A stretch of 63,249 nt of DNA, filler included, from Kipferlia bialata (taxonomy: Eukaryota): the NCBI GenBank assembly GCA_003568945.1. It is 5 parts of 4 records of this genome, joined end to end, with 100 filler letters (N's around TTAATTAATTAA, not from the genome) between each part and the next. Parts side by side here need not be neighbours in the genome. Positions count along the whole stretch, not along the records: positions 1 to 20,427 come from BDIP01000039.1; positions 20,528 to 37,206 come from BDIP01000039.1; positions 37,307 to 45,170 come from BDIP01000041.1; positions 45,271 to 54,855 come from BDIP01000042.1; positions 54,956 to 63,249 come from BDIP01000052.1. One strand, 5' to 3'. Both the position numbers and the translations under genes were made by a program. The notes beneath the pieces were generated by a model. That model had not been told where the DNA came from and did not search any database. It saw only the letters and a program-made list of their open reading frames with translations. Of the stretch, positions 1,144 to 62,800 are shown in pieces (the stretch's first letter is position 1; each line of letters opens with the position of its first letter).

Positions 1144-2012
1144 ATGTCAGGCAGAGAGAGAAGGCCCCAATTGTACGTAAGTGGTATATACATGGTTATA
1201 GTGGGTTCTATATGGTGTTATAGCGCACCTGTGTGTGATTCTGGGTAGTATTGTCCTTCTTTAGCAGGTTTATCCCCTTTATCGGGTGTATAGGGAGACA
1301 TGTGTTACTAATCACCCTTCCTCCTTCACATACCATACCTCATTTGATATTGGTACTCATGTGATTGTGTGTATTGTCGTGTAAATAGTGTAGGAATCAG
1401 TGTGGTACTCTCTGTTGTGTTCCCTGCGAATACATATGATTCCTTCCCTTCTGGTATGTCTCCTATACAGTTTATGTGTACCGTATACCATGAATGTGAC
1501 ACCGACATCTTGTAGAACTAACCCTGCAGGGAATGTGTGTATTGATGTCACTCTATTCACTCAACTGTGTCACAGTCTCTCCCTCCACCCGACTCTCTCT
1601 CCACACAACGTAGCTCTCACTCTAACACCTTCTCTGTTCCCACGTCATCTGTTCTCACCCCTAAGAAAGTACCCCTCGTCTTGTTGCAGATGGTGATATA
1701 CTCCCTCTCCCACTCCACTCACCCTCTCTCACCCCCTAGTAGTCACCCGAAGGATATCAGTATACATATCTATATCTATATCTAGTATATATACTTAGAT
1801 CTATCCTCTAATCCCTCAGTAGTGACCCCTCTGCCAAGCAGAGGGCGATTCATATGACTGTCATATATACATTATGTATCACATAGTATATACTAACCCC
1901 TCAGTAGTGACCCCTCTGCTAAGCAGAGGGTCATGAAGGATATCAGGAAGCTCTCCATGCGCTTCCCAGTCAGTGCGGTGGATGACAGGTATCCCTCTCT
2001 CTCTCTGAGAGA

Positions 2013-2046
<34 letters not shown>

Positions 2047-2431
2047 GTACCTATATTGATGTGTCACAGTCAGTGCGGTCGACGACAGGTGCGTCTCTGC
2101 CTCTCTCTCTCCCTCTATATATATATATATATATATATACATATATGGTATCACTACTGTCGAGATCGACATGGCTAAGAGTCCACTGTGTGTCTCTCTC
2201 TATCCCTCTCACTCATAGCAGGATCGACGAGTTCCACGTCTGGATCTGTGGGCCCAGTGACTCACCATACGAGGGTGAGTGCCTCTCTCTCTCCCCTCCC
2301 TTAAGCCCCAGTACATGTATATTCTGTGACGACTTACATACTCTTGTGAGGCCATAAACCCTTCTCCCTCACCCCCAGGTGGAGTGTTCCAGATCCATGT
2401 GACCCTGCCACCCAACTACCCATACAAGGTA

Positions 2432-2466
<35 letters not shown>

Positions 2467-3904
2467 ATCTATTACATACTAATCTCAGTCCCCCTCCGTA
2501 GGGTTTGTGACCAGGATCATGCACCCCAACGTGGACACGGGGTCGGGATCAGTGTGCCTGTACGTGTATATACATACTTACTCGATACTCAGTGTTCTAT
2601 TCAATACGATTGTATAGTTCTGCTTGGTACTCGGTTTCCTACACGATATCTCTCCGCCTCTCACCCCCTAGGGATGTGCTCAATGCCAGATGGACCCCTC
2701 TGTATGGCCTTGCCCATGTGTTTGAGACATTCATCCCACACCTGCTCAGGTAGTGTATATATGTATATATATCTGACTACCTCTCTCTTGGTTCCTTGTA
2801 TATATTCTCACCCCCAGGTACCCCAACCCCCACGACCCCCTCAACACCTGATTGATAGAAGGACATACATACCTTCATTACTGTCAAGCTTGATGTAGAT
2901 ACTCATCGCAAGGTACCCCAACCCCCACGACCCCCTCAACAGTGATGCCGCCAGGATGCTCATAGGCAACGAGGAGCAGTACAAGGTATATATATACTAA
3001 ATGTATATATACACTAGTATGTATGCATACAATAGTATATATACACTAGTATGTTTGCCGAATGAGGAACAGTACAAGGAATATATACATATATTGTGTA
3101 TGCAGGGGCAGAGTCTACTCTTGTATACATTGCTGACCCCTAGGTGCAGGTGCGCCGGTTCACCTCTGTGCATGCCTCCCCTGAGAATGCCCATCTACCC
3201 AAGGACATACCCAGGTATATGAATATGTACACATATATATATCCATATACATACATTGAGTATACTATACATATATGTACTCCCTGAGAATGCCCATCTT
3301 CCCAAGGACATTCCAAGGTACATGAATATACATCTATATATTAATACTAGACACAATATTGGAGAAGTAGTATTCCCCAGGTATTTGTTTGACTTGTACA
3401 CTCACCCCAGTCCCTTCAAGCAGCTCCTGCTACAGCAGTCACACAAGGAGGAGGTATGACTATGAGTATACATACTCCATACATATGGATACAGTTACTA
3501 CTCTGTATAGTGACTGATACTCAGGTTGGTGCTGGCATAGGTGCCCTTGTGTCACCAACCATACATGTAATCACTGCCTATACACGATAATCAATTGTCT
3601 CACTCTCACCTTTGGGTTGGTGCTGGCATTGGTGCCCTTGTATATACTCTCATATTCCAGACATACAGTTACTACTCTGTGTTATTGCTTACTTATTTAT
3701 TACTAACACATAGGTCGGTGCTGGCATAGGTGCCCTTGTGTCACCCACCATGAGCACCAGGAGTGAGCTGGTGGGAGAGGTACAATGTATTCACTTGCTT
3801 GACATGAAACCTTGTTCTTCTGCTAGAAAGCATAGTATGCTCCCTCATCCTACCCCCACCCTCAGGTGTCTGACGAGGAGTTCTCCTTCAGTGACCCAGT
3901 GTAG
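1144..3904 (+). CDS. UBC8: Ubiquitin-conjugating enzyme E2, UBE2H/Ubc8 (GID complex) type, about 11 exons
   Basis: Spliced by hand: [138 protein letters not shown]...[12 protein letters not shown]. Has HPN plus catalytic Cys (SVCLD) and the YPNPxDPLNxDAA motif typical of UBE2H/Ubc8. All introns are GT-AG and phases are compatible. Confidence 0.92.
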
Positions 3905-4386: not shown

Positions 4387-5655
4387 TTACACGATCAGCC
4401 TGACCTCAGGTAGCTCCACCTGGATATCGGTGAGTAGCTCTCTGGGTACACGGGTGCCCCTGTGGTGAGACAAAGGGTGTACAATGAAACATGTATCTAT
4501 ACGTAGTCTTGACCAATGTGCTATCAGGTCCAGTAGACCAATATCTCCCCCTCTCTCTACATAAAGCATATTCATCTGAATGTAATCTACCTCAGTACAA
4601 TAATAATATATGAATATAGTATATATAGTATATACCTGAGCACTATGGTGTGCAGCCTTGGGCACTCTGCGATCAGGTCCAAGAGGCCTGAGTCACTGAC
4701 ACGGGTGTGGGATACATCGATGGACTCCAGACGCCGCAGGAGGCTGGGGGGTTAGTCTCTCTCTCTCTGGATACATATACATCTACAATACCAAGTCAGA
4801 GACAGCAGGAGTCTGGGGGGTCAGGTATCCATATATTCATTGCGCAGTTTCACGCGTACACATAGAGACAGTATTATAAAGTATATATGTCAATACCTAG
4901 CCACCCCCCTCAGTGCCCTGTCACTGCTCCTCTCTCTCTTTAACTATATACATATATATATATACATATATATATATACATACACTACATACCTTGCTAC
5001 TCTCCTCAGTGCCCTGTCTGTCACTGCCTCTCTCTCTCTCTATATATATATATATACATATACAAATCTTACACCATATATATAGAGTGTCTATACCTTG
5101 CCACCCTCCTGAGTGCCCTGTCTGTCACCGCACTGCCACTCAGATCAACACTCAGGGCACCACGAAGCAGGGCCTAGGGTGAGGGTATATATATGAGTAT
5201 ATGTACATGTCCATGTATATCAAACAATCTGGGGTGAGGGTTTGTATACGAATATGTAAATGGTTATCATACATACATCATACACTTTGAGCATGGATAC
5301 AATGGTGGTACCTTCTCGCCCTCTGTGACGTCCCCCTGTCTCATGGTGTGTGAGGCCGGGAGGGAGATGAGTCTTCTCAGCAGGGTAGAGGCTGGATCAT
5401 ACTCAGCCTCTCTCTCCCTCTCTCTCTCCCTCTCTCTCTCCACCTGTGGCACCGTTGCACGAACGGTCTCGGGGGTATCCCTGAGGTGACCTGTCCTCTG
5501 CCTGATAGAGTTCTCTCTCTCCCTCCCCCTCTCCCTCTCTGTGTTATCCACCTCGTGGTACATGCGGTTGATGCGTTTGAGGGTGTTGACGCCACGGCCT
5601 GATATATCAGGGTATATTCAGAGATATGTATGTATACATAGAGAATACTTGTGTG

Positions 5656-5695
<40 letters not shown>

Positions 5696-8600
5696 TACCT
5701 GCACTTGTGGGTCTGTTGAGCCCCCCTCTGTTGAGTGGACTCTTACCCCCTCTGGTCCTTCTCCTCCTGCCCTGGTCCACAAGTCGCCTGGTACGTCAGT
5801 ACATGCATATACACATACTGATAACATCTTACATATTCACTATAAAGAATACTGATTATTACCTTGTGCTCCGGAGCCTGTCTCCGCTGTCACCCTCTCT
5901 CTCACCGTCTCTCTCTCTGTCCACTCTCCTGCCTCTGGCACTGCCCCGACTGGCACTTCTCTCTCTCTCTCTCTTCTTTGTGGGTGCCCTTCCTCTCTCT
6001 CTCTCTCTTCCCTTACCCTTGGTGTCTAGGTCAGAGTAGGTGAGGGGGGCAGGCTCAGGAGAGGCACTAGCACCAGGCTGCTCCTGTTGCTGTAGCAGGG
6101 AGGAGAGAGAGAGATGCACACTGGGTACAGAGGCAGCTGGGGTTGGTACTCTCTCTCTCTCTCTCTCTCTGCCTGTTGTGGATCTGAGTCTCCTAGCAGA
6201 TGTGGGTCTCTCCCTCCCCCTCTCTCTCTGGGAGGTGACAGCCATCCTGCTCCTGCTCCTGGAGGCAGAACGGCCCCTGGCACGCTCCCTTAGTGTCAGT
6301 ATAAGAGAATCAATATACATTACTGTGAATGTTGTACACTCTTACCTGCTCAGGGCACGCATGTCTCTGGCTCTCTCTCTCTCAAGCCTCTCCCTCTCCA
6401 CACGCTCCCTCTCCTCTCTCTCCTCTCTCTCCTCCACTGCAACCCTGGGGGTGAGAAAAGATATACATATAGAACTCAGCTTCATACACATGTCTTGATA
6501 CTCATTAACACGTGTGTTCCAGCTTTCCAGACATCTCTAATGTATACACATATATGCATAAGAGTATACCTGTGTGCCAGCTTCGACACACTCCTGGACC
6601 GCTGTGTCAGGACAGACTTGGCCCGGTGGTGCTTGGTCTCACTCTCCCTGGGGTGTGAGATATACACATGTATACATATGAGAGACATGCACAAGGCTAT
6701 GGAGAAAGTATTCCCATACTGTATGTAATTTGCCCTGGTGCTAGGAGTCACTCTCCGTCGAGAAAAAACATGCAAATGATATATATAAATACATATACAC
6801 ATTCGTGTACAATATCAACAATTCTCCTATCCATACCTGATGAGCCGTGTGATGCTGGCGATGACGGGGGTCAGTTCCTGGGAGTCAGTACAGAAGCTAC
6901 TGATAGTATAGTGTTGCATATGTATATATTGAACATCAATACCTGAGCGTTGTCGATGGCGGTCAGCACCGACTGGGCCACGGATATCAACTCAACGAAG
7001 CGGTCGGTCAGGACCCTGGGCGTGAGATACACAATATCACAAGTGTCAAATGAATTTATAGATACCTGATCTGTGGGCTGTACTTGGTAGACATCCCCTC
7101 CAACCCCTCCTGTAACATGATGTCACGCTGCATCTCAGCTGAGGTGGGGCGGTGCACGCCCTGCAGTGAGTATGTTTAAAATTAGATGTATACTACTACA
7201 CTATGTAGAATAATGTACAATTGCAAATTCATAAAGATATATATATATGTAATCGGCTGAGGTGGGGGGTACACACCCTGCAGTAATACGATATACACAT
7301 AAATACTGTAGTGTACTAACTCAATCCCCACCTGCATCTCATCGACCACGAGGCCAAGCTCGAGGCCAATCTCTCTCTCCATGCCACGGAGGGCCTCGGC
7401 CTGGGGTTAGAACATTGATAAGAGAGATAGATAGAGAGAGATAGTATACCATGCGATTGAGAACCTCGGTCTAGTACTAGGCTAGAGTATGAAAGTATCA
7501 GTAGAGAGTGTGAATGTATATATCGGTGAATGAGATATATCCTCTTACCTCAGCCTCTGTGAGCTCCCCTCCCCAGATACCATCCCCGTCACCCTCTCCC
7601 TCTCCCTCTCCCTCTCTCCTCTGTCTGCCCTCTCTCTCCAATAGGGTCTTGACACGTCTGTCGGGGGACGTCATGTAGATGGAGTCTGTGTTAGGGTGAC
7701 TATTAACATACAGAGACAGAATACCCGTATATATATTGACACACCAACGCAATAGAAAAGAGAAAACTCAAACATACTACCTGCGATGCATATTGTCTTT
7801 GAGTATGCCTCTCTCACTGCCTCCTCTCTCTCCCTCAGCTCCTGCTGCCACAGGGCCTCTCTCCTGAATGTGAGAGATATACTTTACGCATTTATGTGAT
7901 GAATAGTGGAAATGACACAATCTATACTCACACACAGCTACACATGCATACCTAGCCTCATCCTCTCTGACGACTGTGTCTGTGAGGTGCTGCACTGTGT
8001 CACGCACACCGGAGAGCATGGCATCGGTCTCGGCCCTGAGGGTTGGGGACATACATACCCCGGTGTATTCATTCAATTCAATGTGTATTTTCACCCCTAC
8101 CTTGTAATGGCGAGTGTCACCATCTCCTCCAGTTGGCATACACAGAGATACATATATATATACATATATATATATATATGTAAAGACTTCACTCCGATAT
8201 ACATACCTTGTAATGGCGAGTGTCACCATCTCCTCCATCATCATTATAGATAGATACCTCAATAATTATAATGATTTACTACCGCATAACTTCATATAGG
8301 TCTTACCTTGTAATGGCGAGTGTCACCATCTCCTCCAGGATGTCTGAGCACACCCCCTCCACCCTCTGCCTCTCTCTCTCCTTCTCGAGGGCAACGGACA
8401 GACTCTCCACCATTCCCTCTCCCTCTCCCTCTCCGGTTGGACCCTTTAGAGACATGGCAACCTCTCTCTCTCTCTCTGTCAGGCCAATCTCCGCAAACTC
8501 ATAGTCCACAGAGACAATCTCCCGGGGGGGCTCGGCGGATACAGCGGCAACTGGCTTCATGGCCTACACAGTTAGTACAACGACTGCACGGAAATGTAGC

Positions 8601-11600
8601 TCAAACATCTAAGAACAAAACAATACAAATACTACCATATCAATACAAATATTACCGTAGTCGTAGAGGAAGAGAACTGCATGAACCATATATTGACTAA
8701 ACATACCATAGGCTTAGGGGGGGGTGGCAGGGCAGGTGCCAGCAGTCTCGAGACTATGCTCTTGATGGGTCTCTCTCCCCTGGGGGTTAGAGAACACTAG
8801 TATTCAATACATACATAATTGTATGTGAAACTCTAATTAGGTTCATACCTAGCATCCACCGGCTTCTTGGAGACAACCTCTCCCTCTCCCTCTCCATCGG
8901 TGAATGTGGCAAAGAGTCTCTCCCTCTCCACATCACCCCAGTAGGCACCATACACCACATACTCGGACTGGATTGTTAGTTATCTATATAGCAGACACAT
9001 AGGATGATGAGTATTTCAACAATTCGAAGAGCGATATTCGAGTACATATCAACAGTAGGCACCATCACACTTACTCAGACTGGGGTCAGTGATGTATACA
9101 GTGTGCAATATACTAACTAGCATTCAACACATTACCAATGACACTGTCCACTGTAGTGAACACATACAATGTACACTACATTCTAGATGTAAAGAATATT
9201 AAATATACATACCGTGACTGCCTCTCTGACGCTGTCTCTGGCCATGGACCTGGCAAGGGACACGGTCTGGGAGTGAGATGCACACATATACATGAATGAG
9301 TGTACTTGTTAGATCCAGTAGAGATAGTGATAATAGTAGAAAGGACACGCACCTCTGCCAGCACCGACTCCTCGACCCACCCGGCCTCTCCCTCTCCCTC
9401 TCCCTCTCCCTCTCCGTCTCCCTCTGTCTCTCTGTTGAGGAATGGGTTGGGAGCATAGCTAGACACAGCTGGGGAACCAGACCCCACCCAGGCAATGGCA
9501 CGTCTGAAGATTAGCGTGTATATATATAGTATTAGTTATCAAACTATATATACAGAAATAGACACACCCAGGCATTGCACGTCTGGGGGTGAGATGGAAT
9601 ATGTATAGAGAACACGTACAACCATATACATTATAGTCATGTATATATGTATATATAATAGTATAATAGTATATGTATAGTATGAAATACTGCTACTAAC
9701 CTCACTGGGCTGAGCACTGACAGGATGGGCGCCAGGGTGTCTGGACTGGGCCCTGGGTCCTCTCTGACCACACTGCCACGTCTGGACCTAACAGTTAGAC
9801 ATGTAAATACAGTACAGTACAGTAGTCAATGGTTGTGGTATCTCACTCTATAAAACATACCTGCTCCCCCTTCTGCTCCTCCTGCCACTCTTCTCTCTCT
9901 CCTGCCTCTCCTTCTCTGCTCTCTCTCTCTCTCTCTCCTCCTCCTCCTTGGCCCTCTGGGCTATGCCCCTCTCCTTGTCCTGTCTCTCACGGTGCATCTG
10001 AGAGACGGCCTCGGAAAGCTGTCTGGGGTAAGACTATCTTCACACACATTGTATATACAAAGAAGAAGCTAGTGTAATGTGCTAGTGCTTAGGTAAGAGT
10101 ACATAGGAGGATACATACTACGATAATATGGTACCTGCTCCTCTCCGGTGTGTATCTCCGCATGTAGCAGCACTCAAAGGTGGACAGGGGCAGGAGGGAG
10201 AGAGAGGGGACAGAGGAGAGCTCAGACAGAGGAGCAGTGTGGCAGAAGAACAGAACCTGGGAGTTAGGTGTACACATTGAATACACACTGAATACCACAC
10301 TGTGTACATGGTAACTATATGGATACCCTATCTACTATATCTACTATTATATATATATACATATATACTATAAATGTGAAAAAGATACATACCTGTGTGT
10401 CTGCGCTAGTGTTGATGGGTACCAGTCTGAGGTCGTAGAGACCAGAGACATCCAGAACAAGGGGGGACACACGGTCAGCCAGGGACTGGGGTGAGCATAT
10501 GAAATGGTAAAGAGAGAGAGAGGGAGAGAGAGAGATACATCCAGGACAAGGGGGGACACACGGTCAGCCAGGGACTGGGTTGGTATGTGAATATGTGGGG
10601 TCACTTATAGCGAAACACATGATATGTGAGAGAGAACTACGGGTGACACCTGCAGTGCCCTCTGGAAGCTCTGTCTGAACTGTGCCATGTCTGTGTCTGT
10701 CTCAACAGTGTCTGGGAACAGGGGCATGCCACCCTGGGCACGCAGCCTAAGGGTCTGGAGGTACTGATGGTCAGTAACTACAAATAGAGAGAGAGAAAGA
10801 GAGAGAGAGAGAAAGTGAGCTAGAGAAGCATGTCACCCTCGGCTACGGGAGGAGGTACCCGATCGAGCATGGCCATAAATACTAATGTATATATAATACA
10901 TACTCATTACCTCCATCTCCCGCGTCCCCAGTGTCTCCACCACCCTGTCCTCCCTATCAACAAGGGGTACCGATGGCACAAAGGACCAGTCGGAGTTGGG
11001 AACAGCAACCATGCACTCGCCGGCGGTGCTATCGCCTAGGGGTTAAGGTGGTACCTGGTGTGTACATGCATATATAGTATTAAAACTGGTGTTTGTGTAC
11101 CTGCGATGCTGAATGAGACTAGTGCCAGGTGCACTCCAGGTGCCAGCCTATCCACATCCTCTCTCTCTCCCTCTGCCTCTCCCGCCATGGATGGAAGGGT
11201 GGGGTGGGGGGCACTTCTGGCCATAGAGGAGATGAACCTAGAGGTGAGCCATGCAAAACACATATATCAGTGCAAATGAATATCAATTGATAGTATACCT
11301 AGTGTGTCTGAGGGATGGGGGTCCCCTGCTGGCCACGTCCAGGTGGATGTCAAGGAGGGGGTACAGGACAGACTCGACCTGACATTAAGTGGATTGCATG
11401 TATATAGCATGTGTACACTATATATATGAAAACATATATATGTGTGTGTGTAGGTATAATAAGAAAGGGTAGAGGACAGACTCAATCTGACTGTTAGCAG
11501 AGAGACAAATAACTGAAGGTGAGGGGGTAGACTATATGCCACATATATTCATGTCGCTAAAAATATGTATATATGTACATATGTATAATACATACCTCTG

Positions 11601-14600
11601 CCACCCCCATGCGTCTGAACAGGGCCTCCCTCTCCTTCTCCTGCTGCCTCTCTCTCTCCCTCTCATTGTCAGTGACTATAGCGGCAGGGGGCACCACACT
11701 GGCATCAGTGCAAGCAAATTTGTAGATATGTTTACATACCTAAGTATATATACACTTCTACATGCGTACAGCAGCATATTCATACATTCATGTGAATGTG
11801 TATATGATATTTAAGAATTATGGATCTCCATACCTGCATGCATAGAGCAGCAGTGCGTCTGTGTGGTGGGGTGTGATGGACAGAGACAGGGGGCGGGGGA
11901 AGGGGGTGAGGGTCTCCCTGTCAACTCGGAAGCCTGGGGGTCAGTTATCACTTGTATATGTATATGAATACATTGTCTACACCTAAAACTATACCTGCCA
12001 TGTCCATCTGTGTACATACAGCGTGTAGAGCAGCTACAATAATACCAAATATGCAAATACACAATACTTAGTGATTATCTATCTATGTCATATATGCTAC
12101 CTGCCATGTCTATGTGTGTACACACTGTGTGCAGGGCAGCCTTGACTATATATCATACATCTGTATATATACTATATATATATACACATGTTGTATATAT
12201 ATATATATGCCCTATCTACCTGCCATGTCCATCTGTGTACACACTGTGTGCAGGGCAGCCTTGACAGCTGGGTCCCCGTCCTCCAGAGAGGACAGGAGGG
12301 AGAGGGTGGCAGACTGGACTGGGGGTTAGAACTTGTAGTTATGTATACGTACAATGAGGCATATATACATATATACAAATAGTTTAGATGATAGGAGGGA
12401 CAGGGTGGCAGACTGGACTGGGGGTCATATATATATACATACTACTGCATATATATATATTGATATGAAAATGAATCAGGGGGACAGGGTGGCAGACTGG
12501 ACTGGGGGTTGGTGTGTGAATATATAAAATATACATGGATGTGAATCATACGGAAGAGGGTGGGGATACAAATGAAATATGGAGTACCTGACTGATCCAC
12601 CCCCAACAGGGCAGATGATGCCTTGGGAGTGAACTCACAGGAGGGGAGGGCAAGGGGCAGGGCCTGAGGGTGAGGGTCAATGAAACAATACTACATACAA
12701 TGGACGGGTACAAATATACACTGCGCACAGTACCTGGGAACAAAATTAAACATACGAGTATTGACTCTAGTGTATAAAATGTACAATACCTATGTACTAT
12801 TAGCCTTGTTGGGCATTGGGTATGAGAGTGTACATAAATAACACTGACTCTAGTATATATATACCACAATACCTGGGTACCATTAGCCTTGTTGGGCATT
12901 GGGTATGCCAAGGCCAGTGCAGATGCCTTGTCCTGTGCGCCCCCTACATTGACAGCCACAATATCTCTCTCTCCCTCTTCCTCTGTCTCATCGGACTCTG
13001 GGCATGTGCCAATGAGCACCACTCTATAGGTCTTGGTCTGCTTGGGCTTCTCTCTCTCCCTGGAGGGGAGGGCAGGGGGAAGACTGGGGTGAGACCGAGT
13101 ATCACTGTAACCACAACAGAATACACGCTTTCTCCCTCAGAATCGTATTACTATAATAATTACCACCAGTATACTATACCTAGCCATAGAAGTGGGTGGC
13201 TCTGCCCTGGATGTCGTCAGAAGGGACCGGAAGCCCTGGCCTCTGCCCTCCTGGGCACCCTGGGCGTGAGAGGGTTATAACATGATATATACTATATACT
13301 GAACAATTATGGAATTCACAACAATACGGTATTGCACATACATAGAGATTACACTCTTATGCCCCGGCCAGTAGTAATGAGTAACAATTATTATGAATGA
13401 AAATGGAACGTAAATCCCCTCCATGTACACGCTGAATGATACAACCTATTTGGCCTAGTAACGTAAACATGTATACTACCATTACCTTATCAGCCGAGTA
13501 CTTTGACGCGAATGACAGACTCATCATGTCATCTAGGACACATATATAGTAATATTGATATATATATATATACCTAAATACTCATATACGTGTAGTAATG
13601 AATATAGTACTCTTGTCTTACCTTATCAGCCGAGTACTTTGACGCGTATGACAGACTCATCATGTCATCCAGGACATGGTCCAGATGGGTCAGGAGGGCG
13701 TCACTGATGCCGGCACTGACGGCAATGTCCCTAGTGGTTAGAATACATATAATGCCAGTAGGTACATGCATATGACTGTATTTGGTACAAAGAGGATAAT
13801 AGTTTGTCACTGATGTCGGCACTGACTGCAACGTCTCTGGGGTGTAAGTACACACATACTCTTCTTCTACACAAACAATTAATATAGCAGCTATATATAT
13901 ATATAAATGGTGGTTGTCACTGATGCCGGCAATGTCCCTGGGGGCTCAGAATAATATACCGTACACACACATACACACATATATACACATATATGCATCC
14001 AAGTATATTAATGTACAAAATGTCCAGTACCTGAGCTTAGCGAGTGTCTTCCCTAGGTCAGGCTGGGCAGGGATAGGCCCAGGGTAGAGAGACATCTGCT
14101 CAGCGATGAGAAGCAGTCTCTCGACGGAGGAGGCATCTCCTGAGTGTGAGTGAGATATATACACTTGGAATATAAGCTGTGTACATTTGTGTACACACAT
14201 TCAGTACATTACATTCTACACTATAGCTAGTAAGACTACTGTGGATGACAAATAGTGGGCGTTCCCAAATGTATACACCACGTTATGAGCAGAGCTCACC
14301 TGACACCTCCATGTCTGCTGCCTGTGTTGTTACCATATCATATATACATACATATACATAAATATACCCAAACTACAATCTATCTATATATCTATATATA
14401 TATAACACTGTCCAATCACCTGACACCTCCATGTCTGCTGCCTGTGTCGTGATGGTGTGGCACCTATAATACACACTAATACACTACTATATACTGTCAT
14501 TCTCACCTGACACCTCCATGTCTGCTGCCTGTGTAGTGATGGTGTGGCAACTATAGAACATATCAATACACTACTATATATATATATATATATATATTAT

Positions 14601-47669: not shown

Positions 47670-47714
<45 letters not shown>

Positions 47715-48348
47715 AAGAGAGAGAGAGAAAGAGTATACTGGTTGTCATGGATGGCAGGGACTGGACACCTCTAGGGGTTACTATATATATATATACATAC
47801 ATACAGGGATATAAACCATATTGGCAGTCTTGGAGGGGAAATACTGGTGAATATGCAAATGTGATGTGCTTCACAAACTTTCGTCTAATATACATATGTG
47901 CCTATATATGTATGTATATAATAGTATACCTCATTGCTATGCAGCTCTGGAGGGCAGGGGCAAGGGGCACAAGGTCTCTGGGGGTCAGTGTGGATACAAG
48001 TAGACACACCAAAACACAGATATAGTACAAAACACAGATATAGAATAGATATGTAACATAAATGTGTGTAGGGGCTGTTCTAATTTATATAGTTATAAAT
48101 AGAAACAAATCATGTAGAATGTATATATACCTGTAACTGTGTCTCAGTAGCACCCCCTCGGCTGGGGAGGCATCAGGCAGGGGCTGGGACTCGGTTCTGA
48201 TGTTAGTACATGTCATTAGTACATATATTGCATATTGAAGGAGTTAGAGAGAGAGAGAGAGGCATCGTGGAGGGGCTGGGACTCGGTTCTGATATGTAAG
48301 TATGATATCTTACACACGTAGATGTATGGAGAGAGAGAAAATAGAAAG

Positions 48349-48395
<47 letters not shown>

Positions 48396-51300: not shown

Positions 51301-51941
51301 ATCTCCTTGCCAGTCAGTGCCCCGTATGCCATGTCGTGCTTCAGCATGGTGCGAGACATGATAGTTCTAGAGGTAAGGGTAGATAGATATATATATAGAG
51401 AGAGAGAGATACTAAGATAGAGAGTGAGTGAATGGTGCGGGACACAATGGTCCTAGAGATCATGCATAGAGCCACAAAGAGTATGTAAAGGAGGGAGAGA
51501 GACAGCAAACATAGTCAGTACTCATATAATGCAATATATATATTTATATACCTTGCCCCCGACATGACCTCCGCTGCCTCGATCCACAGGTCGGGCCAGT
51601 GCCTGGGGTAAAAAGACATAGGTAATACGATTATAAATTCGCCATATGAATACGAAGATAGAGCGAGTATATACATATGTATGTATGAGTTATCAAAGCC
51701 AGAATACTATTTGGAATACAAATATCTGTATATATCCGTATATGTACATGAAATAGAGAGTACCTCAGGTGCAGCAGAACATGCTCATACACAAAAATAA
51801 CGAGATTACCAATATATGTACAAATACATTACTACATAGATTCATAGTCAGAATAGAAGAGAGAAAGTACCTCAGGTGCAGCAGTACTTGCTCATTGACA
51901 TCAAACACACAATAGTAGTTGGAATACATAAGAATATACTA

Positions 51942-51978
<37 letters not shown>

Positions 51979-52307
51979 TGTATGTATACCTCAGGTGCAG
52001 CAGTGCCTGCTCGTACACAAACAATAGTCTGTTGGCAGCGAGACCAGCGTCAAGCTGCATGGAGTCGCCTAAAGTCAATTGAGAGTCAGGAATAGTCACA
52101 AATAGTCGGACGGATCTCCAATTTGTTGTGAATAATATGAATACTGTGGTACGTACCGAGCAGTCTCTCAAAGTCAATGACTTCAGTCAATACAAGATAT
52201 ATATATATACATATAAGATACATAGAGTGACCCAGTTAATTGAGTGACTTACACGTACCGAGTAGTCTCTCAAAGTCAATGACGTCCTTCCAGAGGGCCA
52301 TCTGAAC
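45304..52307 (-). CDS. CSTF3: Mirror copy of CstF-77 exons 23076-30079
   Basis: Reverse complement of the + strand copy, inside the duplicated contig. Confidence 0.7.
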
Positions 52308-52353
52308 CTGAGGTTACCAGACCGATGATGAACGGGGGGGGGGGGGGGGGGAA

Positions 52354-52401
<48 letters not shown>

Positions 52402-52421
52402 GTATCCACATAACACCCCAC

Positions 52422-54758
52422 CTGTCGTGCTGGATGGTGACCTTCAGCATCCAGTGCTTACCGGCACCCATGTGGGCTGTGGTCACGTCCTGCCTCAGTG
52501 TCCTGATGTCAGTATCAGTATCAGTATTAGTATCAGTATCAGTATCGATACTGAGAGATTGACATTGCTACTGTCACCTGATGTCCACTGTGCCTCCTGT
52601 GATCAATACAGCACCCCCTGTGAATGACTCGGGGGGGATGTGCTCGGCCACCTTGCCAAACATGAGGGCGGCAAGGCCTGGCGTGGGGGGGGGGGGAGGG
52701 AGTGCATATATACATAGAGTACATATAGCAGGGCACACCGACCTGAGACACTCCTCTTGGCACCGTGTGTGTGTGTGTACCCGAGGTTGAGGAGGTATGC
52801 GTGGCCGAGCTGCTCCTCCGTCAGATGAGAGACAGAGTGCACCAGGCCCATGGTCACCATGTAGTCGACTGAGAGGTAGGCTGTGAGGAGGGGGTCTGCG
52901 TGGAGCATGTAGGTGTGCAGCAGGGTCCTATCCTTGGCCATCACACTCCTGAACTCGACAGAGGAGAGGGAGATACCCTCCCCCGTGCCCTGGCTGTCGT
53001 GGGACATGCATGCAGAGACACACACCTTGGACGCCATCTCCTCGGACATGCCCAGGAACCTAGGTGTAAGTAAGTACGTCAAAAAAATATACAAATAACA
53101 CACATAAGAAATATGTATGGCACCTGAGGACACCGGAGAGTGTCTCTGAGGTGACAGTCATGGTCTCGATGGGGACACCTGGGACGGCAGAGGGCATCTC
53201 GTTCAGCCAGTCCTCAAGCACACCTGGGGGTGAGGGATAGTATATATGAAGAGAGAGAGAGTGAGAGGGCAAGGCCTCCAGCACACCTGGCGGTAATGGA
53301 CAGTGGTAGTATAGAGAGAGAGAGAGTATGAGGGTAAGGCCTCAAGCACCTAACACTCAATGATAGTGGTAGTATATAGATAGATAGAGTATGGGGCAGG
53401 GTATGTATACCTGAGGGGTGTGCGTAGTCGTGCTTGTTCCTGGTCCACCTGGCCTCTGCAGCATATGTCATGGAGGTCATGTCATGGGAGGACTGGGGGG
53501 TGAGGGTCATTCTATATATAAATAGAAAGAGAGAGAAAGAGAGAGATGGAGAGATGGAGAGATTCTGTCATGGAGGTCATGTCATGAGAAGACTGATGTA
53601 AGGGGTAAGAGAGACAGAGAGAGAGACATAAATATAGTCCCGCACCTCGATGTTGGCAGCTGGGGATGCACAGTGGATCCTGACTGGCTTGGATGGGACA
53701 CCGGCTGTCTCACAGGAGGCAGCATAGAGGGCAAAGGCGGCAAGGGTGCCAAACTCCCTGGATGTCAGTATATACCAGAGTACGTACCACTCATAAATGT
53801 ATATATATATATTGTATATGTATATTCGAATAGATACCTAGAGTTGAGCTTCCTGTTTGGCACCACCACGTCTGACAGCACGTCCTGGCCATCCACCACA
53901 CACTGGCCCTCCCACAGCTCCTGGGCGGCAGTGCCCAGACCAACCATGGCATACTCCCTCTCAGTCCCTGGAGGTAGGAGGGAAAGGAGGGGAAGTGAGA
54001 GAGAGAGAGAGAGAGATAGAGAGATAGCCAAGGCCCACCACGGCATACTCCCTCTCGGTGCCTAAAGGGGTAGGAAGGGAGGTGAAGTGAAGGAAGAGGG
54101 AGAGATTACGTACCTGGTGCCATGTAGAGCCCCTTGTCAGCGTCTGCCTCTGCCGCAGCCCTGGCAGCCTCCATGGTGTCCTGTCCATCCCCGTCGATGA
54201 AGACGACTGATGCCCACTTGCCACAGACAGGGGCCTCGGACATCTCACGGCCTGGGGTAAACGGGGGGGGGGGGTTATGGTTAGAGAGACTAGTGGGTAC
54301 TCAAGAGAGAGTCACTCATAGTCAAGAGAGAAGAGATTAGACACTATAGGACACTCTCTCACCGATTGTGCATGCCGTGTACATCTGGTAGAGCCCAGAG
54401 AGCCCCAGGGGCCTCCTGGCATCCACGTAGAGCACTGTCTTGAGCCTCATGTGGGAGGCCACGGTGGCAATCTCCAGCAGGTGGAGGGCCAGGAACGGGG
54501 CCTTCTCGGGAGAGTATGGGATGTGGATGGTCCTATCGGAGGAGCCCGGGGGAGGGGCAAAGAAGGAAGAGTCCAGACCGGCCTGGGGTGAGGGACTATA
54601 TCACTACATACAGAGGAAGAGACTCAGTCCATGGGTGAGTATACACAGACACCCACCGAGAGAGCGGCTCCGATGATGACACCGGCAAAGGCCCTGACGG
54701 AGATGTCTCCCATCCTCTGGATGTTCTCCAGCTTGACCACCCACTGGCCATCTAGGTC
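52422..54758 (-). CDS. Mirror copy of hypothetical gene 20625-22961
   Basis: Reverse complement, inside the duplicated contig. Confidence 0.6.
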
Positions 54759-54855
54759 CTAGGGGGAGAGGGAGAGAGAGAGAGAGAGAGAGAGAGAAGC
54801 ACAGAATGGGAGGGGGGGGGGGGGGGGGGGGTGGGTTGTTTTTTAGACAAAAAAA

Positions 54856-54988: not shown

Positions 54989-57529
54989 CTGCATGCGCTG
55001 CCACTGCCCTATCTCTGGGTCTAGGGACCAGCAGTCTCTGAGAATAGAGGCATCGTCTGTCCTGCCTCCTAGGGGGTAAGTATATGTATAATATTGTGAC
55101 TCTAGTATTTATGATACTGATACTGTCACTAGACCAGAGCAACAGCAGTCTCTAAGGAGAGAGGTATTGTTTAGTTTGCCTCCTAGGGGTGTGTATTCCA
55201 TTCAGAGTATACCCGCCATGTCATGATGTATCATATCTTAGCCAGGATACTTGAAGGTTTCATACTGGTTGTATCATACCACCCATGTATGCATCAATTG
55301 TATGAGTACTGACTCTTCGGTGCATATACATACAACACTGTATTTTACGTATACATATGGGGAAGGGGAGACAGTACCTGCAATGTAGAGACGGCCTCCC
55401 AGTGTCCACGAGGAGTGTCCGTATCTAACGTTAGAAAAGTAATAGAAATGTAGGTAGAAATATTAATTCTATAGCCTAACGACGAGTGGCCGTATCTAAT
55501 GTTATCACAGAACAGTAATTGGCTATTACTGTTACTAATGGTATCATAAGTAACCGTATACCACAATAGTCAAGACGACTATGAATGTAACCTATGTATA
55601 CAGCCTACTATATATAATCTACTATATGTATAATCTACTACATACGTAATCTACTATATATGTAATCACCTAGCACAAGGCCACTTGTCAGTCTCTCTCT
55701 CTCTCTTACACTCAGTCCACTCCTTGGTGATCAGGGAATACACCGCTAGCCGGGAGAGAGCACCCACTGATGTTAATTACTATATAGGTTATTGTATTTT
55801 ATATGTCTATTAGTTTCGTAACCAGATCACCTCCTGGGGTAAATACTTGTATATAGGAAGAGAGCGACATATCAACGAGCTGAGATATATTCATTATTTT
55901 GCCGTTGAATTCAAATGTATGTGTGTATATATGTCGTAATGGCAAAGATCTGTGTTTACATGGGGGGGGGGGCACGTACTTCGCTGGTTATCCCCTCCGA
56001 ACTGCAGTATGAAGTCTCCTATTCTAGTGCCAGGTGCATGAGCAACCTACTATGAGTGTTGTACACTTAATATACTATATTTTTATATATATTGTATATA
56101 TAGTATATTTGGTAAATATACATATATGTGAACTGCAGTATGAAGTCTCCTATTCTGGTGCCTGGTGCATGTGCAACCTATTCTAAGTGCATATAGTATG
56201 TATATACACTGTAAGCCATATGGTTTATATACTACATCTATTAACACATACTGCATACTATATATTAACAACTATTTGTATCTAGTGCCACGTGCATGCA
56301 CAAACTATTCTAAGTTAGAATCTAACTTAGAATTTCTTAGGGCATATATTCCATATATAGTACGTATGTAATGCAAACTAAATACACAACGCACACTACA
56401 TTTACAATATCTAAATACACATAGGAAGAAGAACTACAATGTATGGGAGGCAAGAGCAGCCCCAACTTGTTCTGAGTGAAAAGAAATATCAGTATAATAT
56501 CATTACTCATAATAGTAATAGTGTATATATTGTAAGAGTATATGTATAGAAACTCCCTATCTCTTTCCCTAATAGGGAGAGAGTAGGTGGGAAGAAGGCG
56601 TCATCATGTTATAGTAAATACAATACTAGATACTAATTATTACTTGTATATATATTGAGAGAGAGGGTGGGTGGGAAGAAGACATCATCAATATTCAATA
56701 TTTATTATTACAACTAATGTGTACCTCCATATCTGTGTGTCTACTTATAATATATATATATATATATATATACTATATATTGTATAGTATATTCAATATA
56801 TACTAATACAACTAATGTGTACCTCCATATCTGTGTCTCTACACCCTATATACTTATAAATATATACTTATAAGTATTACTTATATATATATATTATTCA
56901 ATACCACTAATCTGTACCTCCATATCTGTGTCTCTACAATCCAATTTGGGCTCACATGAGTAAGAGTAAGGTCCAGGGGCCTGCGGTGAAACGAGGTTCG
57001 CAGATACACCACAGAATAGGTCTTCTAATCTGAGCAGAGATTGGAAATTCCAATTTGGAATATATGATACATCATATCTCAACCACCAGGTCCATCAAAC
57101 TTGCACTCAAACCTTCTGGGTGCAAGTGAGGGTATACATATACATACACACACTCACACACACACACATATATATATATATACATATACATATTTATATA
57201 TACATATGCATACATACACACACATATATATATATGGGTATATGTCTACAAATACATTTGCATAATATGCATTGCACACATACATACATATATATGTGTC
57301 TATATACACATATGCATACTTTTACCTTCTGGGTGCAACTGAGGGTCACATGCGGGTAGTAGGGGAACCCATGCATGTTCTTTCCTGCAATCACTGCAGA
57401 ATACTCGTCTCCCGGAAGGAGAGAGGGGGATGGGGATACACCATCTGCTGAAAGGGTGCCACTGTATGCCAGACACACACACTCCCCCTTATGCTTCGCA
57501 TCATACTCTGTCCACTTGATATCAGGCAT
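54989..57529 (-). CDS. Kelch-repeat protein, intron-rich, 3' end lost at linker
   Basis: MPDIKWTEYDAKHKGECVCLAYSGTLSADGVSP...TQK|APGPYSYSCEPK...|VAHAPGTRIGDFILQFGGDNQR|..LAVYSLITKEWTECKRERETDKWPCAR|YGHSSWTLGGRLYIAG|GRTDDASILRDCWSLDPEIGQWQRMQ. Canonical Kelch R-x-x-H, GG, DxW and W motifs. Exon structure between 56.4 and 56.7 kb is unresolved. Confidence 0.8.
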
Positions 57530-58641: not shown

Positions 58642-60888
58642 ATGGCTCGGATGACGGACCCTGTAACTGGACACCGCTATGACACACACACAGAGCAGCT
58701 GACACGTGACACATTTGAAGTTCCACAGCAGCTCTTAGTGGATAGAGGCGAGAGAGTATATGGCAACCCACTAACATGTGTGTACCTAGGCCCTCTCAGC
58801 GCTGATGGTGTCTCCCCCGCCGAAACACTAGAGGAAGGCCAGCACTACGTGTCAGACTGACACTGTCAGTGGTCATAGGAGGGCAAGGGCGTAGATCATC
58901 AGGCTCGCGTTTCTGCCAGACCAGCTGTGTGCTGTTGACCCTAGATACTGGGACTGGACACTGTCCAGTGGACACTGTCCAGTGGACAGTACACTTCCGA
59001 GGTGGTTCCAGGCGTTCCTGTCTCCGAGTGTGGTTTAGACCCCCTAACTGCCGTACGCAATGGTGACTCAGTGGTTGTTTTCGCTAGTTCTCATCAGATT
59101 AAGAAGCCCCGACAGAGTTATGGTTATTCTGAAGCCACGACACTTGTGAATGCTCTATACGTATATTCCATCAGGGACAAGACATGGAGAGTTGTGCCTA
59201 AGAGTGGAGAGTGGCCCAAAGGGAGAAAGAGTGAGAGTTCTTGGTGTCTCGGAGGGCGATTCTACATTGCAGGTGGCATGAACCAAACGGGTATGGCGCT
59301 GAATGACTGTTGGAGATTCGACTTCCTTTCAAATGAGTGGACCCAGCTTTCAAACGCCCCAGTGGCTTTCTGCTTATCCTGTACAGTGGCAGACCTCGAC
59401 ACTGTCCATTTGTTTGGAGGCTGCGGGTCATACGATGATACAACAGTATGCAAAATGCACGTAACATTCAAGAGGTCGTCTAATAACGCTGGGTATTGGC
59501 GTCAATGTGCTGATCTTCCCATAGTGGTGAGTGCAGCAGTTACTTTACAATATTGACCCATATTTAAGTAGGTAACACTATGTCGTACTCTGAGGATATT
59601 GCCCTGTTTCTGGGACGCATACATTGCAACTGTACTGTCTGTCCGACAGACTGTGCAAGACGACAGACTGTCGTCTTGCTTACGATAGGTGAACCGGATG
59701 GCAGGCCTTGTAGCCCAACCCGTTTTCATAAAACCCAATGTGTACCTCATGGGAGCTCTCAGACACCATCCTGACAACTCCAACAGAGGCTTAGATAGGT
59801 ATTGGTATGTCTCCAGGCTCGGTTCTGGAGAATGGATGCAAGTGATGACTAAGACACCTTATGCGGCGTACTGTTGTTGTGTTGCTGGACCGCGTACTAT
59901 CCTGGTACATCATGCATCAGGTAGGCAGGGGTGTCTGACGCTGTGGAAGACGGTTGAGAGCCCGTGGGAGAGAAAGAGGAGAATGGAGAGGGAACGTCAA
60001 CGTCAGACTGCAAGGCAGCGCAGCAGAGAGCAGCAGAGGACGAGCACAAGCACTCACACTCCTCCACATGTGTACCCCTACCCTCCTACAGACCACTCTA
60101 CAGACAGCAAGGCCACTAGTACACCAAGAGCTAACACTGGAGCTCGTCCAAGTATGTTCAACCGGCCACATGCTACCAGTTGGGGGAGCACTCACCCTGA
60201 GAGGCAGAGCATGCAAGAGAAGGCGAGAAAGAGGAGAGAGGAAAGAGAGAGAAAGAGCCAACATGAACAGGAACAGAAGCATGAGAGTGAGAGGCAGAGG
60301 GAGAGGGGGAGATCTGATAGTGCACAGCACTTACACCGGCAAGAGAGAGGGGATGCAGATGCCCGGGAGAGAGCTAGGAATTTCAGTGCCTGTACAGACG
60401 ACTATTACAAGGTACCTCACCCCGCTATCTGAAATTTCAAGGATACGTATATTTACTATACATATATACTCTAATTGTCACGTAGAATATGTTTGCTATG
60501 GCAGCTGCTCTCCAAGGCTAAGCATAGATACTTGGTGTCGCCCAGAGTTCAAGTCTCACAGAGATCAGCAAGGCCTTCCGGAGGCTAGCGCTCAAGTGGC
60601 ACCCAGGTCATATAGTTACATTGTTAGTATTGAATCTAGATGCACTGGTATTGATATAGAAATGATATATATTCCAACACACACCAGGTTCTGCAGCAGA
60701 ACCTCTGCTCGAATGCGCAATGTTACTTTAAAGGTATTTCTTACACCCCAGACCACAACCCAAACAGAATTGAGATGGCGTCTATGATGTTCAAGCGAAT
60801 CACAGCTGCCTATTCAGTGCTCAGGGAGCCTCAGGAGAGGGCCGCATACGACAAGTACTGCTGGATGCGGCTGTACGTGAACCAGTGA
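58642..60888 (+). pseudogene. Kelch-repeat + C-terminal DnaJ (J-domain) protein, frameshifted by hairpin footprints
   Basis: Kelch blades (WPKGRKSESSWCLGGRFYIAGG..NDCWRFD..W; VHLFGG). J-domain spliced over introns 60412-60527 and 60607-60751: DYYKILGVAQSSSLTEISKAFRRLALKWHPDHNPNRIEMASMMFKRITAAYSVLREPQERAAYD (HPD intact). Frameshifts at 58849-58870 and 58954-58989, and a further break at 59550-59690. Confidence 0.75.
58849..58989. mobile_element. Two putative DNA-transposon (hAT-like) excision footprints
   Basis: gtgtcag-actgacac-tgtcagt and ctggaca-ctgtccag-tggaca-ctgtccag-tggacag, i.e. T[1..7]+revcomp(T)+T[2..8] of an 8-mer. No element is present; transposon origin is inferred. Confidence 0.55.
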
Positions 60889-61113
60889 CCATGTGTAGGA
60901 GTGCCACTATATATTCAGCGCGCTTGGGGCTTTGAATACTTCTAGTGTTGAATAGACACTACTTAGTTCACTCCCAATGAAGCTTTGGGGTATATGAGGG
61001 ACTTGAACTGAGTAGCAGATTGAATTGTAGGGTGACAACGAATCGTTGACAACAATCTCCCTTACTCTGTGTTCCGTGTAGACTGTTGTGTCTCAATGAA
61101 ACGCAAACACGAT

Positions 61114-62800
61114 TTATGGCCCATGGTAGTTCGCAGCTGCCTCTCTCACCCTTTCCACATCCACGTGTAGTATGTAGTGCTTCCCATCCCACGTCACCAG
61201 GAAAGACGCGGGACCAACCTACTATCAACCGAGTGACCATATGCATAAATACACACACACACATATACACAAATAAGAATATACATAAGTGTATATCATT
61301 ATACAACACACATATCCTGCAGTAGTATATATATGGTAAATATTTGATACATATACTTGGAACCAACCTGTGCCCGGACCTCCCATGCACACTGGTCCTG
61401 TGGCACTGCCTGGAAGAGAGGGGACCACTGCCCCGAGACAGGATCCAGAGCACTCACTACATACCACCTACGTGCCGCAGCTGGGCCAAGCATTACGCAG
61501 ATGACTAGACTTCCCACTCTTATTAGAGATCTCTCCATGATACTGCCTCGAAAGTCCTGTAGAGCCCTCCTCCAACCACTCTCTGCTGTGTACTCATTGA
61601 AGATAACCGTGCACTCTGACTGCCGTCCTTCATACTCCATGATGGTGGCTGTTCCAGAGAAGAGGGTATCTCCTATCACGAACCGAACTGATCTCATCTT
61701 TCTCCGAAAGTGACGCCGCCAAGACCGTTTAATGACGCCGTGTCTTTGCTCTGTCCACTGCTGAGAGGTAGGATCGAAGGTCCAAGTGTGGCCGTGCTCA
61801 TAAAATACTAAAGCACCCCCAACATTGTATAGAGTCTGGTGGTGAGCACGAGATTCATGCAGCCAGTATTTGTGTGAACTGAGAAGCAGATACAAGCCAG
61901 CAATTACGCCAGAATGTCTCACTGTGACATACTATGATACTATGATAGTATGATACTATCACTCACCCCTGGTCCCTCTGGTCTCACCCCCTGCGCATGG
62001 CTGGTCCAGGTACCTGGGGTTAGTGTATCTATCTATCTATCTGTCTATCTATATACTAATATAACTATCTATATATCTATATCTATAATTATCTCTTCTT
62101 ATATTTATATATAGGCATAGTGAAGTAGAGTGAAGTGCATGGCTGGTCCAGGTACCTGAGGTTAGTGTATCTAATAGATACTATCAATAGCAACACCTGG
62201 GTCATTTAGTACAAGTGACAGAGAGAGGCAGGGATGGTGACAGAGGAACATAACACAAATGGAAATGGAAACTGAGATGTCACTGACACGTAAATCTAGC
62301 AGTTACTATCAGCACTGGTAATCTACCTGACTCATGGTTGAACATATATACATATACATATACATTCATATATATGCGTGTGCATCATCCATATATATAT
62401 ATATATATAGTGTATATACACATATTATACCTGACTCATGGTTGTACATCCACAGTTTCACAGGGTAGTCACCCAGGTCAAGAGTACCCCACTCCCCTCT
62501 GTGTCCATCAATCTCCTGCCTGATAAGATACGAGACCTCACCCACCCTCACACAGGAGGTATACTCAATCTCGGGACATCCCTTGCTCTCCTCTCCCCTC
62601 CGAAACACTGGCTTGCCCCCCTCCCCCTCTCTGTCCAGGGTGTATACGTATCCGTCGTGGGTGTTCAGGACTGACCCAGGCCAGAGAGGCATGGGGGAGA
62701 AGTGGGGTGAGGCTATCTCAACCTCTTCTAGCCACACGCATGCGTCTCTCGTTTCAACCAGATCTCTGATGGAGAGGGTTGGAAGTACACCGGGAGTCAT
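61114..62800 (-). CDS. Divergent Kelch-like / beta-propeller protein, 4 exons
   Basis: MTPGVLPTL...SCVRVGEVSYLI...KLWMYNHES|GTWTSH...PG|TLYNVGGALVF..TWTFDPTSQQW..FVIGDTLF..SALDPVSGQW..RAQ|VGPASFLVTW...NYHGP*. Repeated DP-x-S-x-x-W and VG/IG motifs. Confidence 0.7.

What the first reader, a model, noticed from the sequence alone, without database searches (positions are those of the whole stretch)
1820..62330. Window-wide 'exon echo' system: polarised partial exon copies with splice sites inside introns
Seen: many exons are preceded by 1-3 copies of branch point+AG+first 20-50 nt of the exon, and followed by copies of the last 20-50 nt+GT donor. Examples: UBC 1820, 2067, 2818, 3282, 3525, 3617; 8101/8207; 14300/14420/14507; 20116-20322; 27613/27740/27847; 28664/28782/28895; 55131, 56130, 62137. 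In the cases checked, 5' halves lie upstream and 3' halves downstream. Copies usually break off into (AT)n/(CT)n. Inference: a recurrent junction-duplicating process inflates introns, and the spliceosome must skip intact decoy sites, which points to strict exon definition or recursive splicing. I cannot check whether this has been published.
Basis: partly seen in the sequence, partly recalled or inferred. Interest (0 to 1): 0.88.

Follow-up and report, generated by a model that had tools for sequence, protein, structure and literature searches.

The report
Allele-derived exon echoes inflating protist introns
In a free-living protist, two in five of the introns examined hold short copies of the neighbouring exon's end with its splice signal, and these copies differ from the real exon mostly at silent positions, so they are likely leftovers of other working versions of the gene picked up by misaligned recombination.

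Summary
Confirmed and extended. The window is five joined records of a Kipferlia bialata-type genome, one a duplicate. In 130 modelled introns, 52 carry 83 echoes (61 of 259 adjacent exon-intron pairs against 40 of 17,680 control pairs). Polarity is 83 of 83, but any junction-spanning tandem duplication gives that. DNA contigs run through echo and exon unbroken, so these are not stitched haplotypes. Units are about 107 nt: 30 nt of exon, one splice site, about 73 nt of AT-rich intron. New here: echo-versus-exon differences are mostly synonymous (pN/pS 0.19, bootstrap 0.13-0.27; simulated neutral decay gives 0.43-0.72), echoes differ silently from each other too, and their intron flanks barely align. 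Best reading (inferred): out-of-register recombination between diverged working alleles deposits and refreshes exon ends. Echoes lack a partner site and are skipped in the annotation and in one probable RNA contig; AG|GT recursive splicing is unsupported. Junction repeats are known as amphioxus 'mirages' and the F7 VNTR, and the scan noted such arrays in animal genomes; density, fixed size and protein-level constraint make this a new variant.

The parts
1905..3904 (+). Ubiquitin-conjugating (E2-like) gene, 10 modelled exons; 5' end unresolved
   Evidence: open spliced frame; family assigned from recalled sequence features, the one exon scanned had no Pfam hit
1820..1845 (+). acceptor echo of exon 1905; a second, internally deleted copy near 1739 seen by eye
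   Evidence: one DNA contig spans both and the exon
2064..2088 (+). donor echo of exon 1905-1988, two synonymous differences
2818..2846 (+). acceptor echo of exon 2913, identical over 29 nt, with a different and more consensus-like acceptor
   Evidence: shared 31-mer at double depth
3282..3317 (+). donor echo of exon 3144-3214, three synonymous differences
3525..3641 (+). two acceptor echoes of exon 3714 (3525-3562; 3616-3641, AG lost)
4388..20046 (-). large gene of unknown function, 57 predicted exons (about 2020 aa, 5' partial); 35 echoes in 26 of 56 introns
   Evidence: my own prediction; two 3' joins match the probable RNA contig; no database protein found
4744..5096 (-). intron with two donor echoes (4897-4922, 4993-5027), removed whole in a contig of run X2
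   Evidence: loose end at 4745 continues with the letters of 5099 onward (matched by eye)
8101..8237 (-). two donor echoes of exon 8563-8307, no mismatch, with unlike intron starts
14300..14549 (-). three donor echoes of exon 14676-14614
20112..20324 (-). three acceptor echoes of exon 20046
20670..30079 (+). Suf/CstF77-like gene, protein P0001, 29 exons; 34 echoes in 16 of 28 introns, nearly all in the AT-rich 3' two-thirds
27536..27873 (+). array of acceptor echoes of exon 27957 (27614, 27740, 27847, faded 27536); three share one breakpoint, yet one carries three private synonymous changes
28415..28927 (+). two donor echoes (28415, 28519) followed by three acceptor echoes (28666, 28784, 28897) in one 687-nt intron
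30080..34223 (.). further echo-bearing introns: 3' continuation of the Suf-like gene (+) and a minus-strand gene (33256-33737)
   Evidence: models predicted
37307..45170 (+). echo-free record: three genes with short (median 68 nt), GC-richer introns; internal contrast
45271..54855 (-). exact duplicate record of 20528-30112; no independent information
55143..56303 (-). acceptor echoes in a predicted kelch-like gene (55143-55182, 56130-56177, 56281-56303)
   Evidence: 'kelch-like' is recalled from motifs
62137..62345 (-). acceptor echo (62137-62155) and donor echo (62327-62345) in one intron

Best explanation
The echoes are real, one-sided, roughly 107-nt duplications across exon-intron junctions whose exon parts differ from the exon mainly at silent sites, and they likely arise and are likely refreshed by out-of-register recombination or repair between diverged working alleles. 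Shown: unit anatomy, polarity, synonymous bias, diverged intron flanks, skipping in the annotation and one probable RNA contig. Inferred step 1: introns here turn over fast through (AT)n/(CT)n slippage, so short exons are the only islands of homology between alleles. Inferred step 2: a break or strand invasion in an exon, with synthesis running into the unalignable intron and rejoining out of register, leaves one allele's exon end and splice site beside the other allele's intact exon; later unequal exchange inside the 30-nt homology multiplies the unit and swaps in fresh allelic sequence. Inferred step 3: only products with a single splice site survive, because the spliceosome pairs sites across the exon (or takes the first donor and last acceptor) and ignores a half exon; once parked, an echo decays slowly. 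The echoes are by-products without a function of their own.
For: Mismatches by codon position 49/37/140; 134 synonymous, 92 not; pS 0.21, pN 0.046; wrong frames abolish the effect. All four bases mismatch about three times more at position 3, so it is not composition. pN/pS 0.19, bootstrap over 58 exon ends 0.13-0.27, 0 of 5000 replicates reach 0.5; 0.13 in the independently annotated gene, 0.03 in the E2 gene. Simulated cis duplication with neutral decay, AT bias and CpG effects gives 0.43-0.72 under the same detection. Echo-private changes are 33 synonymous to 13 not, against only 7 and 2 where all echoes agree against the exon (counted; p 8e-6 against the most favourable serial model), so drift of the exon alone does not explain it. 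Intron flanks are related but far more diverged than silent sites (identity 0.47-0.53 next to the site vs 0.36-0.41 for unrelated introns) yet still score as working splice sites. Breakpoints coincide within 2 nt in 11 of 22 sister pairs (15% by chance). Polarity 83 of 83 and donor-then-acceptor order in 8 of 8 introns with both. Context: metamonads lack NHEJ and all fornicates examined lack Rad51A and carry two Dmc1 paralogues (PMC8516963, passages); Dmc1's tolerance of mismatches is recalled, not from a call.
Against: No second allele, strain or relative was available, so the required pool of alleles with silent divergence near 0.2 is unobserved (metagenome scans empty; contigs showed no other letters, though contigs drop variants). 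The bias is weak or absent in subsets: 8 echoes of the four small predicted genes give 0.51, the 26 low-scoring echoes 0.41, the large predicted gene 0.31. Synonymous differences lean exon-GC to echo-AT (71:28 untrimmed, 51:30 trimmed), which symmetric allele swapping does not predict. Exon-part divergence does not track flank similarity (rho -0.06, -0.13), against one-step capture of a whole unit though compatible with refreshing. The model is matched numerically by silent sites in exons changing four times faster than the echo. RNA support is one contig of a run only guessed to be RNA.
Confidence: 0.55

Rival explanations
1. Classical mirage: simple tandem duplication on one chromosome followed by neutral decay, with the silent bias coming from drift of the working exon.
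For: Explains polarity, nested order, unit spacing and shared breakpoints; decay is visible (15 of 16 gaps break frame, 3 stop codons); precedent in amphioxus (PMC3087553).
Against: Predicts pN/pS about 0.45 or more against 0.19; predicts that sister echoes share differences from the exon, but most are private and silent; predicts intron flanks about as alike as silent sites, but they are near saturation. It survives only if exon silent sites change about four times faster than intronic DNA.
Confidence: 0.15
2. Echoes are under present selection for coding because they are sometimes used, in mRNA or as frequent DNA templates that overwrite or replace the exon end.
For: Low pN/pS on echo branches and an AT-ward lean of silent changes, as if codon preference were relaxed but amino acids kept; AG/GT kept in 74 of 77.
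Against: No partner splice site (0 of 77); using an echo site would give a stop or frameshift in 71 of 77; frame-breaking gaps in echoes; annotation and one contig skip them. By my own estimate, back-and-forth conversion with the adjacent exon alone leaves pN/pS near 0.5 (reasoning, not a call).
Confidence: 0.15
3. Echo sites are stepping stones that let an intron-defining spliceosome remove long introns in 70-110 nt pieces (recursive or inside-out splicing), and are kept for that.
For: Unit intron part (median 73 nt) equals the size of echo-free introns (68 nt in the echo-free record); echo sites score near real ones; U1-70K, U2AF35 and SF1 were not detected in K. bialata (PMC6679479 supplement 10), which weakens the case for canonical exon definition.
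Against: Only 8 of 44 acceptor echoes are AG|GT, the same share as unechoed exons; 1 of 33 donor echoes has a branch motif before its AG; branch motifs and donor +3 A are decaying; it does not explain the silent bias. Inside-out removal between an inner donor echo and an inner acceptor echo was not testable.
Confidence: 0.1
4. Assembly artefact: divergent haplotypes or strains stitched in tandem.
For: Silent bias and unlike intron flanks are what two alleles look like; the assembly has gaps, unmerged overlaps and a duplicate record.
Against: Independent k-mer contigs cross echo-to-intron-to-exon joins without difference at full depth, and the shared 31-mer has twice the depth of its flanks. 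Tested only on 1-4900 and on one run that may be the source.
Confidence: 0.04

Closest known systems
Amphioxus 'mirages' (Adh3, globins BflGb6/BflGb9, troponin C, PGBD5; PMC3087553 and PMC3902484, passages read)
   Same: Tandem duplications spanning an intron-exon boundary, at either end of an exon, keeping AG/GT signals, without disturbing splicing; unequal crossing-over proposed.
   Different: Mirages are minisatellite-like arrays at single loci with 81-100% identity along the unit; here 52 of 130 introns are affected, copy number is 1-4, size is stereotyped near 107 nt, the intron part barely aligns, and the exon part shows protein-level constraint, which the passages read do not report.
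Human F7 intron 7 37-bp VNTR (PMC1557585, abstract and outline read)
   Same: Repeat whose first element spans the exon-intron boundary; downstream pseudo-donors are functional but silent, the most upstream donor is used.
   Different: One locus, donor side only, near-identical units; does not address use of the most downstream acceptor.
Intron gain by tandem genomic duplication (Rogers model; PMC4974935 and PMC3488318 seen in search listing only)
   Same: Internal tandem duplication involving splice signals.
   Different: There a duplicated exonic AG|GT creates a new intron; here existing introns lengthen and no new intron forms.
Recursive splicing and stwintrons (recursive splicing recalled; stwintrons PMC8469720 seen in listing only)
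   Same: Splice sites nested inside an intron, donor decoys before acceptor decoys.
   Different: No AG|GT enrichment and no interrupted splice element; the nested sites are copies of the exon's own ends.

Membership tests
Amphioxus-type mirage | tandem duplication spanning an intron-exon boundary, 5' or 3' side | tested here: met
   83 of 83 echoes polarised; both sides; flanks weakly but significantly related to the real flank
Amphioxus-type mirage | copies keep AG/GT splice signals | tested here: met
   42 of 44 AG, 32 of 33 GT
Amphioxus-type mirage | normal splicing undisturbed | tested here: inconclusive
   annotation uses outermost sites in 28 of 28 introns; one probable RNA contig agrees; no read counts
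Amphioxus-type mirage | minisatellite-like units alike along their whole length (81-100%) | tested here: not met
   intron side 0.33-0.53 ungapped identity; 6 of 22 sister-unit pairs beat all unrelated units
Amphioxus-type mirage | copy-number differences between haplotypes or cells | not testable with these tools
   no second haplotype, isolate or raw reads
Recursive (AG|GT ratchet) splicing | intronic AG|GT with a working acceptor upstream | tested here: not met
   8 of 44 acceptor echoes, no enrichment (Fisher p 1.0); 1 of 33 donor echoes with branch motif
Recursive (AG|GT ratchet) splicing | intermediates or lariats at the internal site | not testable with these tools
   only contigs were available
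Duplicated or mutually exclusive exons | copy has both an acceptor and a donor | tested here: not met
   0 of 44 and 0 of 33 have a real-strength partner site
cDNA-derived insertion | copy continues into the neighbouring exon across the junction | tested here: not met
   flank identity to neighbouring exon 0.26 and 0.28 vs 0.25 and 0.23 in controls
Intron gain by tandem duplication | duplicated sites bound a new intron inside coding sequence | tested here: not met
   P0001 maps uniquely with echoes wholly inside existing introns

The most novel reading that the evidence does not exclude
This protist's introns grow by capturing working exon ends from diverged alleles, so a single genome carries thousands of fossil allele fragments that record silent diversity near 20% and frequent recombination between homologues in a lineage where sex has not been observed, while a reduced spliceosome reads through near-full-strength decoys at roughly half its introns.
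Probability: 0.4. Interest if true: 0.87.

Novelty: new variant of a known kind. Interest (0 to 1): 0.72.

Why it matters
Echo units make up about 43% of intron bases in the three echo-bearing records (83 x 107 nt of 20,506), so this is a main route of intron growth here, not a curiosity. [quoted passage not shown] It is also a natural experiment on splice-site choice: many near-equal decoys, in a species where U1-70K, U2AF35 and SF1 were not detected (PMC6679479 supplement; the proteome is fragmented, so absence is weak). Practical point: echoes mislead gene predictors (my permissive model took many as micro-exons).

Tried and rejected
No whole genome is held, so nothing here is genome-wide. 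No listed run is on record as RNA; X2 is a guess, and its lack of cover over the E2 gene is no evidence. Read evidence covers only 1-4900. No database protein was found for the large minus-strand gene, so that model is my prediction; the S3b model started one base off, which does not affect echo counts. No relatives in metagenome contigs. Rejected: whole-exon duplication followed by loss of a random half (would give wrong-polarity copies; 0 of 83, and 0 wrong-side matches in non-S3 adjacent pairs in the anchored scan); cDNA origin; base composition or CpG decay as source of the third-position bias; frozen-ancestor model; RNA structure hiding the decoys as main cause (unpaired fraction 0.48 vs 0.55 at acceptors, p 0.09; 0.40 vs 0.37 at donors; mean folding z -1.0 over 36 introns). 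Six of 83 echoes that do not reach the junction were left out of anchored counts; the repetitive 3' region 30900-32400 was not modelled because protein repeats and echoes cannot be told apart. Literature: ten searches found no description of this pattern in Kipferlia; the genome paper's main text has no occurrence of 'duplicat' or 'microsatellite', its supplements were not read; the original mirage paper and the internal-duplication survey are not held, so they may discuss silent differences unseen.
Full report
Source and layout. The window is five records joined by spacers; record 45271-54855 is the exact reverse complement of 20528-30112 and was dropped from all counts. An exon at 22325-22639 is 100% identical to P0001, labelled Kipferlia bialata by its source, a Suf/CstF77-like protein. 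K. bialata is a free-living fornicate with 124,912 GT-AG introns whose gene models were built with transcript hints (PMC5874029, two sections and passages read). No whole genome is held here.

Gene models. P0001 maps to 20670-30078 by exact spliced alignment in one optimal way, with 28 introns. The E2-like gene was modelled by open frame. Eight other models are my own predictions, trained on these two and corrected by eye; two 3' joins of the large minus-strand gene match a contig of run X2. In all, 130 introns.

The observation. Aligning each exon to its flanking introns gave 83 echoes in 61 of 259 pairs, against 40 of 17,680 non-adjacent pairs. On the two best-founded genes alone, 44 hits at a lower threshold, against 14 of 1407 controls. 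All 22 cited positions are echoes. Every echo has the stated polarity (47 exon starts upstream, 36 exon ends downstream), and donor echoes precede acceptor echoes in 8 of 8 introns holding both. A model-free scan found 120 local direct repeats, 82 of them echo-exon or echo-echo pairs; of the 38 others most, by inspection, are further junction copies or protein repeats, two are gap overlaps and one is plainly intron-only. The record 37307-45170 has none in 26 introns; elsewhere 52 of 104 introns have them, and these are richer in AT dinucleotide runs.

Not an assembly artefact. Contigs of DNA run X1 cross echoes and exons without a difference at depth about 410-450, and the one 31-mer shared by an echo and its exon has depth 750. 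Stitched haplotypes would give the reverse pattern. This was tested on 1-4900 only, with a run that may be the source.

Anatomy. An echo is 16-55 nt of exon (median 30-33) with one splice site: AG kept in 42 of 44, GT in 32 of 33. Spacing is tight, median 107 nt; the intronic part is 73 nt, like a whole short intron; each echo adds about 113 nt. Echo sites score close to real ones and equal or exceed them in 14 of 44 and 16 of 33 cases, but branch motifs and donor +3 A are partly lost. No echo has a real-strength partner site, and using one would give a stop or frameshift in 71 of 77 cases. Polarity needs no special system: when a segment crossing a junction is duplicated head to tail, only the copy continuous with the rest of the exon stays exon. 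It does exclude whole-exon duplication with random loss of a half.

The unexpected result. Echo and exon differ mostly at silent sites: 49/37/140 mismatches by codon position, pS 0.21, pN 0.046; junction-anchored pN/pS 0.19, bootstrap 0.13-0.27. All four bases show the third-position excess. A copy that only decays should give about 0.5; simulation with the same detector gave 0.43-0.72, and reached 0.19 only when exon silent sites changed four times faster than the echo. Earlier scan notes on other genomes put such silent differences down to drift of the exon; here that fails, because sister echoes differ silently from each other (pS 0.25, pN 0.046) and private changes (33 silent, 13 not) outnumber exon-only ones (7, 2). 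Against generality: the eight echoes of small predicted genes give 0.51 and the 26 weakest echoes 0.41, as expected if decay or model error is mixed in. Decay is real: 15 of 16 gaps break frame and 3 codons became stops. Meanwhile the intron flank is nearly saturated even beside the splice site (0.41 identity at donor +4 to +8; unrelated about 0.30), though still detectably related (mean z about 1).

Mechanism. The exon part of an echo must have spent most of its divergence inside a working exon. The simplest source is another allele. I infer that fast-changing microsatellite introns leave exons as the only homology between alleles; an exchange or repair event that starts in an exon and ends out of register in the intron parks one allele's exon end and splice site next to the other's exon; unequal exchange in the 30-nt homology then multiplies units and brings in fresh allelic sequence. 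Shared breakpoints in 11 of 22 sister pairs, with private silent changes in some sisters (27614 vs 27740), fit this. Metamonads lack NHEJ, and fornicates have replaced Rad51A by two Dmc1 paralogues (PMC8516963, passages); that Dmc1 tolerates mismatches is recalled. Left unexplained: the lean of silent differences toward AT in echoes (51:30 after trimming), the narrow unit size, and the echo-free record. No second allele was seen.

Splicing. The annotation and one probable RNA contig use the outermost sites. Cross-exon pairing explains this most simply; first-donor scanning is shown for F7 (PMC1557585, abstract). AG|GT recursion is unsupported, RNA folding is at most a minor help, and inside-out splicing could not be tested. 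U1-70K, U2AF35 and SF1 were scored absent in K. bialata while U2AF65, U1A, U1C and several SR proteins were present (PMC6679479 supplement 10, read whole), so the bridge, if any, may be unusual.

Relation to known systems. It works like amphioxus mirages (PMC3087553, PMC3902484, passages), a lead taken from an earlier scan note, but fails the test of unit-wide similarity and adds density, fixed size and coding constraint. Ten literature searches found no report for Kipferlia; the original mirage paper was not available. Verdict: real, a new variant of a known kind, interest 0.72; allele capture about 0.55.

Noticed in passing
45271-54855: Exact reverse-complement duplicate of 20528-30112, ending at the scaffold gap at 30113; the collection holds the same contig twice.
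   Followed up: yes
30080-30172 and 42503-42600: Identical sequence on both sides of small N gaps: unmerged overlaps, not real repeats.
   Followed up: yes
20670-23124 vs 23315-30079: P0001 joins an N-terminal half with a weak PALP match (residues 106-196) and short GC-rich introns to a Suf/HAT half with long AT-rich, echo-rich introns; it may be a fusion or two genes merged by the predictor, with one intron bordered by a G-rich/C-rich stretch near 22969-23075.
   Followed up: partly
30900-32400: 3' part of the Suf-like gene is built of many short exons encoding 'DPR' repeats, each ending at an intron; possibly echoes that became exons.
   Followed up: no
2913 vs 2818: The real acceptor of this E2 exon is a poorer match to the branch/pyrimidine consensus than its upstream echo.
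   Followed up: partly
37307-45170: Echo-free record with short, GC-richer introns; genes include an XPG_N-like protein (weak Pfam match, E 0.007; XPG was reported absent from fornicates in PMC8516963) and a YccF-domain protein.
   Followed up: partly
21973-22159: Intron with repeated faded copies of exon-start-like sequence (22030-22114) below or outside my echo call.
   Followed up: no
58900-60900: Intron-poor kelch-like region with in-frame stops in the frames tried, followed by a short DnaJ-domain gene; may be a pseudogene or a fused gene.
   Followed up: no
7450-7470: Likely genuine 21-nt micro-exon (minus strand) with both splice sites, not a copy of a neighbour.
   Followed up: partly
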